DNA of 12,017 nt from a virus (Duplodnaviria > Heunggongvirae > Uroviricota > Caudoviricetes). Both the position numbers and the translations under genes were made by a program. The notes below the pieces were generated by a model. The model worked only from the letters and a program-made list of their open reading frames with translations, made no database searches and was not told the origin of the DNA. Below are positions 7,988-9,581 of the stretch, in pieces (the stretch's first letter is position 1; each line of letters starts with the position of its first letter). The stretch is taken from the IMG/VR virus record IMGVR_UViG_2526164649_000015, one strand, 5' to 3'.

Positions 7988-8344
7988 ATGCAGTCACGAT
8001 CACTTCTTCTTGACACCGGGACATGGGATATCCTGCTTGATGATACCGGAAATCTTGCCATTACTGATAATCCCCATGCGGTAGCTCAGGATGTGGCGTG
8101 TGCGTGCAGTACTTTTCTGGGGGAGTGCTGGTACGACTCAACGGCTGGCATACCTTACTGGCCACGCATCCTCGGACACTGGCCCGGCAAACAACTGGTG
8201 AATGCCACTCTGCAACAGGAAGCACTTAAACTGCCGACCGTGAGCGCCGCTGTCTGCCTGGTCACAGCTGATCAAACCCGGACAGTAACAGGTGTGCTGC
8301 GTATTACAGATACCAATAATGACATTTTTACGGTACTGCTATGA
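7988..8344 (+). CDS. Mu gp46-like small baseplate protein
   Basis: 118 aa; AGGAGA before ATG 7988; stop overlaps the next ATG (ATGA at 8341-8344); size and position match gp46/gpW-type proteins; motif-level resemblance only. Confidence 0.5.
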   Translation: MQSRSLLLDTGTWDILLDDTGNLAITDNPHAVAQDVACACSTFLGECWYDSTAGIPYWPRILGHWPGKQLVNATLQQEALKLPTVSAAVCLVTADQTRTVTGVLRITDTNNDIFTVLL

Positions 8345-9581
8345 GTGAAAATAAATCTTTTTCTACCGCAGTGCCCGCTGTACAGATTTCGGATAGCGGG
8401 CTGAATGTGCCGGATGAAGCGGATATTCTGAGCGGCAGGCTTGCTGATTTTTCGGCGGCGCTGGGCGGGGCCATGAGTACCAGTCTGAGCAGTCCGCAGG
8501 GACAACTTGCATCCAGCGAAAGCGCCATTATTGCGGATAAAAACGATCAGTTGCTGTATATCGTTAACCAGATCAACCCTGACTTTTCCAGTGGTCGCTT
8601 TCAGGATGCAATAGGCAGGATTTATTTCCTGGAGCGCCGCGGGGCCACAGGTACGACAGTAACAGCGACCTGTACCGGGCTGGTTGGCACGCTGATCCCG
8701 GCGGGCAGTATGGCGCAGGATGAGGCCGGTTATAAGTATGTCAGTCAGTCAGACGTCACTATCGGCGCATCAGGGCAGGTTGATGCGGTATTTCTGAATT
8801 TGTCCACCGGCCCCGTCGGCTGTCCTGTGGGGACGCTGAATAAAATTTATAAGGCAATACCTGGCTGGTCAGGTGTCACTAACGCCAGTGCCGGTGTGCC
8901 GGGCAGCGATGAGGAAACCCGTGCGGACTTTGAAAACCGCCGACGTAATTCAGTTGCCCGTAATGCCCGGAATATTCTGGAAGCCATCCGGGGTGAAATA
9001 CTCTCCACGGTGGAAAACGTGGTGGATGTTTACGTCACCCATAATCCGAAAAAACAGAACAAAAAGCCGGAGTCAGTCAGTATCCATTAACACCCGGTTC
9101 GCTTTATGTTGGCGTGTACGGCGGCAGCCCGGCAGATATCGCGGCGGCCATCTGGCGTAAGGCTCCGCCGGGTATTGATATGAATGGCAACACAACGTTC
9201 ACTGTTGCAGATAAGGAGTACGATCCGCCGTATCCTGAATACGTGATCAGCTGGCAGACACTCAAACCCGTCAGTCTGCATGTCAGTGTGACTCTGAAAA
9301 AAAGTGACTACCTGCCTTCAGATATTACCCGACAGGTACAGCAATCCGTGCTGGACGCATTTAATGGTACAGATGGTGGTCTGCGGGCAAGGGTTGCCTC
9401 TGTTGTCTCTGCCGGGCGCTACTATGCCGGCATTTACAAAACCGATCCGGAACATATTGATATTCTGGGCCTTACTGTGAGCCGTGACGGTTCGTCATGG
9501 ACAACGGCTGTCACTTTCGGGATAGATGAGATTCCGGTTCTGGATGTGTCGGATATCAGTGTGAAACTCCAGGAGGCATAA
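8341..9581 (+). pseudogene. baseplate J-like protein (Mu gp47 / P2 gpJ family), split by a frameshift at an A6 run
   Basis: Two ORFs, 8341..9090 and (extended by hand) 9045..9581, sum to about the size of baseplate J proteins. Restoring one A in the A6 run 9049-9054 gives a continuous ...YVTHNPKKTEQKAGVSQYPLTPGSLYVGVYGGSPADIAAAIW... Confidence 0.6.

What the first reader, a model, noticed from the sequence alone, without database searches (positions are those of the whole stretch)
8341..9581. Baseplate J-like gene broken at an A6 run
The two halves of a baseplate J-like gene sit in adjacent frames and overlap around 9045-9090. Adding one A to the A6 run at 9049-9054 gives a continuous and plausible protein. 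Programmed frameshifting is not known for this gene family, so this is either a genuine pseudogene or a homopolymer sequencing error.
Basis: seen in the sequence. Interest (0 to 1): 0.4.

Follow-up and report, generated by a model that had tools for sequence, protein, structure and literature searches.

The report
One-base gap breaks dead-prophage baseplate gene
A phage baseplate gene in a decayed Shigella prophage is split by one missing A in a run of seven, a change seen only in this one draft assembly, so it is most likely a sequencing miscall or at most a trivial private mutation.

Summary
ORF 8341..9090 (249 aa) and ORF 9114..9581 (155 aa) are the two halves of one baseplate J/gp47 gene. 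The second half lies in the -1 frame, and the only place the frames can be joined is 9045-9090. Every other copy I recovered (34 of 34 loci) has A7 where the window has A6 (9049-9054). Adding one A gives a 413-aa protein identical to the J protein at the same locus in two complete genomes.

The window comes from the draft assembly GCA_000268085.1 (Shigella flexneri 2850-71). The truncated 249-aa product is on record in that contig only. Over the 7.1 kb of unique phage DNA, the window differs from the two complete genomes by this single base. Elsewhere in the contig, two more length-7 runs are one base short, both inside IS copies.

The prophage was already dead:
- a 13.3-kb internal deletion;
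- an IS2/IS600/IS911 pile-up;
- a real, lineage-wide frameshift in the next gene.

Nothing supports programmed frameshifting.

Verdict: homopolymer undercall about 0.7, private neutral deletion about 0.28. Interest is low either way.

The parts
8341..9090 (+). 5' part of the baseplate J/gp47 gene: 238 native residues, then 11 out-of-frame residues (QNKKPESVSIH) and TAA
   Evidence: Pfam PF04865 E 7.7e-12. Translation. Identical to residues 1-238 of the intact 413-aa protein of L018 and L019.
9049..9054 (+). A6 run; A7 in all 34 other loci that hold this stretch. This is the site of the frame break.
9054..9581 (+). 3' part of the J gene (residues 239-413 of the intact protein) in the -1 frame. 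Gene callers report it as a 155-aa ORF from GTG at 9114.
   Evidence: The restored protein aligns across the junction with E217 gp44 (PDB 8env_J, E 1.2e-25, query 16-344).
9583..10187 (+). Neighbouring wedge gene (DUF2612/Phage_Wedge1), split by a GGG->GG deletion at 9807-9808. A real, lineage-wide frameshift.
   Evidence: Pfam profile positions 1-73 and 79-180 of 181 fall on two ORFs. The intact gene is 201 aa in L001. The same GG allele is found in 291 collection blocks, including complete genomes and Illumina assemblies.
5942..8344 (+). Rest of the surviving baseplate module: 3' end of the Dit-like gene, plug, hub, spike and sheath initiator
4910..5941 (+). Terminase small/large subunit fragment, joined directly to the baseplate module by a ~13.3-kb internal prophage deletion
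   Evidence: PHROG terminase hits. In CFSAN029787 the two sides map 13.3 kb apart.
837..4909 (.). IS pile-up (IS2, a LysR-gene fragment, an IS600-like orfB, IS911) that truncates the prophage on the left
   Evidence: NCBIfam and BLAST results.

Best explanation
The A6 run is a one-base undercall of a true A7 run in a 2012-era draft assembly of Shigella flexneri 2850-71. On this reading the baseplate J gene in the real genome is an intact 413-aa reading frame, and the break exists only in the record. Even intact, the gene sits in a prophage remnant that can no longer build a tail, so nothing functional depends on it.

Shown: the break is exactly A7 to A6. It is unique to this assembly. It is the only difference in 7.1 kb of unique DNA. 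The contig carries other homopolymer-length discrepancies.

Inferred: that the missing base arose in sequencing or assembly rather than in the cell.
For: 1. All 34 other loci holding this stretch have A7. They include the orthologous locus with the same IS flanks and the same wedge-gene frameshift in L018 and L019, and five Illumina-based Logan assemblies. L019 is S. flexneri 71-2783, sequenced by PacBio and corrected with Illumina/Pilon at 200-500x.
2. The 249-aa truncated product is on record in one contig only, AKMV01000020.1. In contrast, the 85-aa fragment made by the neighbouring real frameshift is in 291 blocks of the collection.
3. Window 4910..12017 is otherwise base-for-base identical to L018 and L019, with 0 substitutions.
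4. In the 12.4 kb shared with L018, 3 of the 6 runs of length 7 are one base shorter in this contig, against 0 of 56 runs of length 5-6 (Fisher p = 5e-4). A G3 run reads as G4.
5. With one A added, the protein is identical to the intact J of L018 and L019.
Against: No reads are available, and I could not establish the sequencing platform of this assembly. Two of the three shortened length-7 runs lie in multi-copy IS elements (IS600, IS911). There, repeat collapse or real copy-to-copy differences could explain them; the same IS911 copy also carries a 15-bp deletion between CTGGGCG direct repeats and 4 substitutions. In unique DNA only 1 of 4 length-7 runs is changed. Real frameshifts do occur in this gene cluster: GGG->GG in the wedge gene, and a TCAG repeat contraction 20 nt downstream in other S. 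flexneri. The gene is under no selection in this remnant.
Confidence: 0.7

Rival explanations
1. A real, strain-private pseudogenising mutation. Replication slippage shortened the A7 run to A6 in the 2850-71 lineage. The result is a 249-aa truncated J protein (238 native residues plus 11 aberrant ones) in a prophage remnant that was already non-functional. It would be neutral and recent.
For: The prophage is dead, so nothing selects against loss of J. It has a 13.3-kb deletion that removes everything between the terminase gene and the baseplate (in the intact relatives this includes sheath-like DUF3383, tube-like and lytic transglycosylase/tape-measure-like genes), an IS pile-up, and a fixed frameshift in the adjacent wedge gene. 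The same gene has decayed independently in other lineages. Other S. flexneri carry an IS600 truncation plus a 4-bp TCAG contraction, and two EIEC strains carry an internal J-wedge deletion. A7 is the longest class of homopolymer in the region and so a natural slippage hot spot.
Against: It is seen in one assembly only. There are zero substitutions in the surrounding 7.1 kb against two complete genomes, so very little time has passed for a real mutation to occur. The same contig has other homopolymer-length discrepancies typical of miscalls.
Confidence: 0.28
2. A functional recoding or phase-variation site. Ribosomal -1 frameshifting, transcriptional slippage or reversible slipped-strand mutation at the A run would produce both a short and a full-length J protein.
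For: A -1 shift on the A run would regenerate exactly the intact protein sequence. From my own knowledge, not tested here: transcriptional slippage at long A/T runs is known in Shigella (the mxiE literature).
Against: The split arrangement is not conserved: 34 of 34 other copies are in frame with A7. The zero-frame reading is CCG AAA AAA CAG, so there is no complete X_XXY_YYZ heptamer. The 96 nt downstream fold no better than shuffles (z = +0.91, 165 of 200 shuffles fold as well). Six A's is shorter than the runs known to give appreciable transcriptional slippage (own knowledge). The prophage also lacks the other tail genes needed for J to matter.
Confidence: 0.02

Closest known systems
Baseplate J / gp47 family wedge proteins of contractile-tail phages, e.g. 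Pseudomonas phage E217 gp44 (PDB 8env/8eon)
   Same: Pfam PF04865 hit and PHROG 6 'baseplate wedge subunit'. The restored protein aligns over residues 16-344 with E217 gp44 (E 1.2e-25). Same gene order: spike, sheath initiator, J, Wedge1/DUF2612, tail fibre.
   Different: In the window the frame is broken after residue 238. The closest phage relatives are only about 57% identical (Pantoea phage PA-1). The gene sits in a degraded prophage, not a viable phage.
Homopolymer-length errors in draft bacterial assemblies
   Same: A single-base length change in the longest homopolymer class, private to one draft. It is accompanied by other homopolymer discrepancies in the same contig, with no substitutions in unique DNA.
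   Different: The platform and the reads were not available, so this is a match of pattern, not a demonstrated error.
Pseudogenisation of prophage remnants in Shigella and enteroinvasive E. coli (IS insertion, deletion, small frameshifts)
   Same: The same tail module carries IS600, IS2 and IS911 insertions, a 13.3-kb deletion, a fixed 1-bp deletion in the wedge gene and, in other lineages, a 4-bp repeat contraction or an internal deletion in J.
   Different: Those lesions are shared by many independent assemblies. The A6 allele is not.
Programmed -1 frameshift sites (dnaX, the IS3-family A_AAA_AAG site, phage tail-chaperone G/GT)
   Same: An A-rich run lies at the frame junction, and the shift needed is -1.
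   Different: There is no complete slippery heptamer in frame, no stimulatory structure, and no conservation of the split arrangement. The family is not known to use recoding.

Membership tests
Baseplate J/gp47 family (PF04865) | Significant match to the family profile | tested here: met
   PF04865 E 7.7e-12, 45.5 bits against a cut-off of 21.1, on ORF1. E 5e-12 on the restored protein. PHROG 6 E 6.9e-72 over residues 3-410.
Baseplate J/gp47 family (PF04865) | Full-length architecture of about 410 aa that is contiguous across the break | tested here: met
   The restored 413-aa protein aligns at 16-344 with E217 gp44 (417 aa). 553 phage records cover at least 80% of it. Database homologues are mostly 405-417 aa.
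Baseplate J/gp47 family (PF04865) | Position in the baseplate gene block, between the gp25-like sheath initiator and the second wedge protein | tested here: met
   Order: spike (7298-7975), sheath initiator (7988-8344), J, DUF2612/Phage_Wedge1, tail fibre.
Programmed -1 ribosomal frameshift site | X_XXY_YYZ slippery heptamer in the zero frame | tested here: not met
   The zero frame reads CCG AAA AAA CAG. The base before the run is G, so only six A's are available.
Programmed -1 ribosomal frameshift site | Downstream stimulatory structure | tested here: not met
   Fold of 9055-9150: -24.1 kcal/mol against a shuffle mean of -27.1, z = +0.91.
Programmed -1 ribosomal frameshift site | Two-frame arrangement conserved in relatives | tested here: not met
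   34 of 34 other loci have A7, which puts the A-run site in frame.
Phase-variable (contingency) homopolymer locus | Run-length polymorphism among and within strains | tested here: not met
   Only one length variant, the window's own contig, among 35 loci. Variation within a strain is not testable without reads.
Homopolymer sequencing/assembly error | Reads disagree with the consensus, or resequencing gives A7 | not testable with these tools
   No reads are available. Indirect support only: the allele is private to one draft, 3 of 6 length-7 runs are shortened, and there are 0 substitutions in 7.1 kb.
Genuine pseudogene in a decaying prophage | The lesion is reproduced in independent assemblies of the lineage | tested here: not met
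   The 249-aa product is found in one contig only. Orthologous loci in L018-L024 and L032 have A7. The exact-sequence look-up would miss A6 alleles that carry an extra amino-acid change.

The most novel reading that the evidence does not exclude
The A run, and the TCAG tandem repeat 20 nt downstream of it, form a small mutational hot spot. J is repeatedly truncated there at the same TAA (9088-9090) in different Shigella lineages, and the A6 template still gives some full-length J by slippage. That would make it an unrecognised recoding or switching site in a baseplate gene.
Probability: 0.02. Interest if true: 0.45.

Novelty: not a real feature. Interest (0 to 1): 0.05.

Why it matters
It matters very little biologically. 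If the A6 is a miscall, the record splits one gene into two ORFs and should be annotated as a single 413-aa gene. If it is real, it is one more neutral lesion in a prophage remnant that had already lost most of its structural genes. The case does show a way to separate real lesions from record-specific ones without reads. The neighbouring wedge-gene frameshift recurs in hundreds of assemblies. The J frameshift occurs in one.

Tried and rejected
- **Phage DNA search.** Megablast of the gene against the phage collection found nothing. The closest phage proteins are about 57% identical.
- **Programmed frameshifting.** Rejected: no slippery heptamer in frame, no downstream structure, no conservation.
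- **Phase variation.** Rejected: 34 of 35 copies have A7.
- **Looking for the A6 allele elsewhere.**
  - Exact look-up of the 249-aa product: one contig, the window's own.
  - Pattern scans allowing 5-9 bases at the run: genome contigs gave 2 loci, both A7. Viral contigs gave 13 loci, all A7. Metagenome contigs gave 0 loci.
- **ORF2 look-up.** The 155-aa ORF2 is in 1200 blocks, which at first looked like wide support for the split. In all ten places shown, those genomes have A7 and owe ORF2 to a different lesion: a 4-bp TCAG contraction plus an IS600 truncation.
- **Sequencing platform.** Literature searches gave the strain name but not the platform of GCA_000268085.1.
- **IS911 check.** No E. 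coli IS911 copy shares the window's 15-bp deletion; the best matches are 97.6% identical. The differences inside the IS copies are therefore weak evidence about base-calling quality.

Full report
**Observation**

The window has an ATG-initiated ORF at 8341..9090 (249 aa) and a GTG-initiated ORF at 9114..9581 (155 aa) one frame back. The first matches Pfam Baseplate_J (PF04865, E 7.7e-12). The second has no Pfam hit on its own.

The second frame is closed by TAA at 9042-9044 and the first by TAA at 9088-9090. A single gene could therefore only be joined within 9045-9090.

**Pinning the break**

Seven enteroinvasive-type E. coli chromosomes hold the gene at 99.4-99.8% identity. In each, the match is 1242 bases long against 1241 bases here. 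In the two annotated regions I opened, it is a single 'baseplate J/gp47 family protein' CDS.

Base-by-base alignment shows one indel in the whole gene: A7 in them, A6 in the window. Inserting one A gives a 413-aa protein. It is identical to the J protein of loci L018 and L019 and one residue different from that of strain CFSAN029787.

As the record stands, the product would be 238 native residues plus QNKKPESVSIH. It would lack residues 239-413.

**The gene does not naturally end there**

- The restored protein aligns from residue 16 to 344, straight across the junction, with Pseudomonas phage E217 gp44, a baseplate component with a solved structure (8env_J, E 1.2e-25).
- 553 phage records cover at least 80% of it. 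The best is Pantoea phage PA-1, 57% identity over residues 6-410.
- Database homologues are almost all 405-417 aa.

**Where the window comes from, and who else has A6**

An exact look-up of the 249-aa product finds one contig in the whole collection: AKMV01000020.1 of GCA_000268085.1. The window is part of it. A published table lists that assembly as Shigella flexneri 2850-71 (PMC6397287).

The gene next door gives a useful contrast. The DUF2612/Phage_Wedge1 gene at 9583..10187 is also split, by GGG->GG at 9807-9808. Its 85-aa fragment is found in 291 blocks of the collection. These include:
- two multi-megabase chromosome records with the same flanking genes as the window (L018 = UGYT01000001.1; L019 = CP024470.1);
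- several Illumina-derived Logan assemblies (L020-L024).

So the wedge frameshift is a real, lineage-wide lesion.

In every one of those loci the J gene is intact at 413 aa with A7. L019 is S. flexneri 71-2783, assembled from PacBio reads and corrected with Illumina/Pilon at 200-500x coverage (PMC5754485).

Pattern scans that allowed 5-9 bases at the run added 2 loci from species-representative genomes, 13 from viral contigs and none from metagenomes. All had A7. In total, 34 of 34 other loci have A7.

**Error or mutation?**

Over window 4910..12017, which is 7.1 kb of unique phage DNA, the window is identical to L018 and L019 except for this one base.

Over the full 12.4 kb shared with L018 the differences are:
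- 6 substitutions, all inside IS copies;
- a 15-bp deletion in IS911 between CTGGGCG direct repeats;
- four 1-bp homopolymer length changes: T7->T6 at 2869-2874, A7->A6 at 3759-3764 (the start of IS911 orfA), G3->G4 at 4169-4172, and the J run.

Of the six runs of length 7 in that stretch, three are one base short here. None of the 56 runs of length 5-6 differ (Fisher p = 5e-4).

The lesion is private, sits in the longest homopolymer class, has no neighbouring substitutions, and is accompanied by similar discrepancies in the same contig. That is the pattern expected of homopolymer undercalling in a draft assembly.

The caveats are real:
- Two of the three shortened runs are in multi-copy IS elements, where repeat collapse or genuine copy differences are possible. 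No E. coli IS911 copy shares the window's 15-bp deletion.
- I could not establish the sequencing platform.
- No reads are available.
- A7 runs are also natural slippage hot spots.

I put the error reading at about 0.7 and a real private deletion at about 0.28.

**Why it hardly matters which**

The prophage is defunct.
- Left of 5942 the baseplate module is joined directly to a terminase fragment. ORFs 4839..5150 and 5153..6022 hit the terminase small and large subunit PHROGs. In the intact relative the two sides lie 13.3 kb apart. Everything between the terminase gene and the baseplate is therefore gone. In the intact relatives that interval includes DUF4054, neck terminator, sheath-like DUF3383, tube-like and lytic transglycosylase genes.
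- Further left lie IS911, an IS600-like orfB, a LysR-gene fragment and IS2.
- The adjacent wedge gene is truly frameshifted.

The same J gene has decayed independently elsewhere. In the S. flexneri chromosomes I examined (L006-L015, plus the related loci L016, L017 and L028) the run is A7. There, one copy of a TCAG tandem repeat 20 nt downstream is lost, which leads to the same TAA. In L006-L015, IS600 also removes the 5' part of the gene. Two EIEC strains carry an internal deletion that fuses the 5' part of J to the 3' part of the wedge gene.

**Programmed frameshifting and phase variation**

A -1 shift on the run would regenerate the intact sequence. Nothing else supports recoding:
- The zero frame reads CCG AAA AAA CAG, so there is no complete X_XXY_YYZ heptamer.
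- The 96 nt downstream fold no better than shuffled sequence (z = +0.91).
- The split arrangement is not conserved in any relative.
- From my own knowledge of the Shigella and E. coli literature, six A's is shorter than the runs that give appreciable transcriptional slippage.

**Verdict**

The feature is most likely an artefact of the record. If it is real, it is an ordinary neutral frameshift in a dead prophage. Interest is low.

Noticed in passing
window 9583-10187 (GG at 9807-9808): The next gene (DUF2612/Phage_Wedge1) is also split into 85-aa and 120-aa ORFs by a GGG->GG deletion. Unlike the J break, this one is shared by 291 collection blocks, including two chromosome-scale genome records and Illumina assemblies. 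It is a genuine, lineage-wide pseudogene.
   Followed up: yes
window 4839-6022 (junction at 5941/5942): A ~13.3-kb internal prophage deletion joins a terminase small/large subunit fragment to the 3' end of the Dit-like baseplate gene. This creates a chimeric 289-aa ORF (5153..6022).
   Followed up: yes
window 2869-2874, 3759-3764, 4169-4172, 4446/4447: Relative to the same locus in L018, the contig has T6 for T7 (IS600-like end), A6 for A7 (third codon of IS911 orfA), G4 for G3 (IS911 orfB), and a 15-bp deletion between CTGGGCG direct repeats in IS911. These are either miscalls, repeat collapse, or a degenerate IS911 copy.
   Followed up: partly
L006-L015, L016, L017, L028 (about 20 nt downstream of the A run; window equivalent 9070-9077): Other S. 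flexneri copies keep A7 but have lost one unit of the TCAG tandem repeat. That frameshifts J into the same TAA stop as in the window. In L006-L015 an IS600 also removes the 5' part of the gene.
   Followed up: partly
L003 and L004 (EIEC strains VL7S7 and O121 201805972): An internal deletion fuses the 5' part of J to the 3' part of the wedge gene. This is a third independent way the same two genes were inactivated.
   Followed up: no
window 837-4909: IS pile-up: IS2 (orfA 837-1247, orfB 1205-2110), a truncated LysR-family gene (2395-2904), an IS3-family/IS600-like orfB on the minus strand (2873-3709), and IS911 (about 3700-4910).
   Followed up: partly
window 10335-10339 and 10711-12017: The tail-fibre gene (10174..11559) reads GGGAGGTATACC where EIEC strain CFSAN029787 has a G8 run (GGGGGGGGTACC). 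Beyond 10711, identity to the EIEC relatives drops to about 92%, so the fibre is mosaic.
   Followed up: no
L009 (CP102221.1): This S. flexneri chromosome also shows T6 instead of T7 in the IS600 T run, and several genes go uncalled in the locus. Homopolymer miscalls may be present in that assembly too.
   Followed up: no
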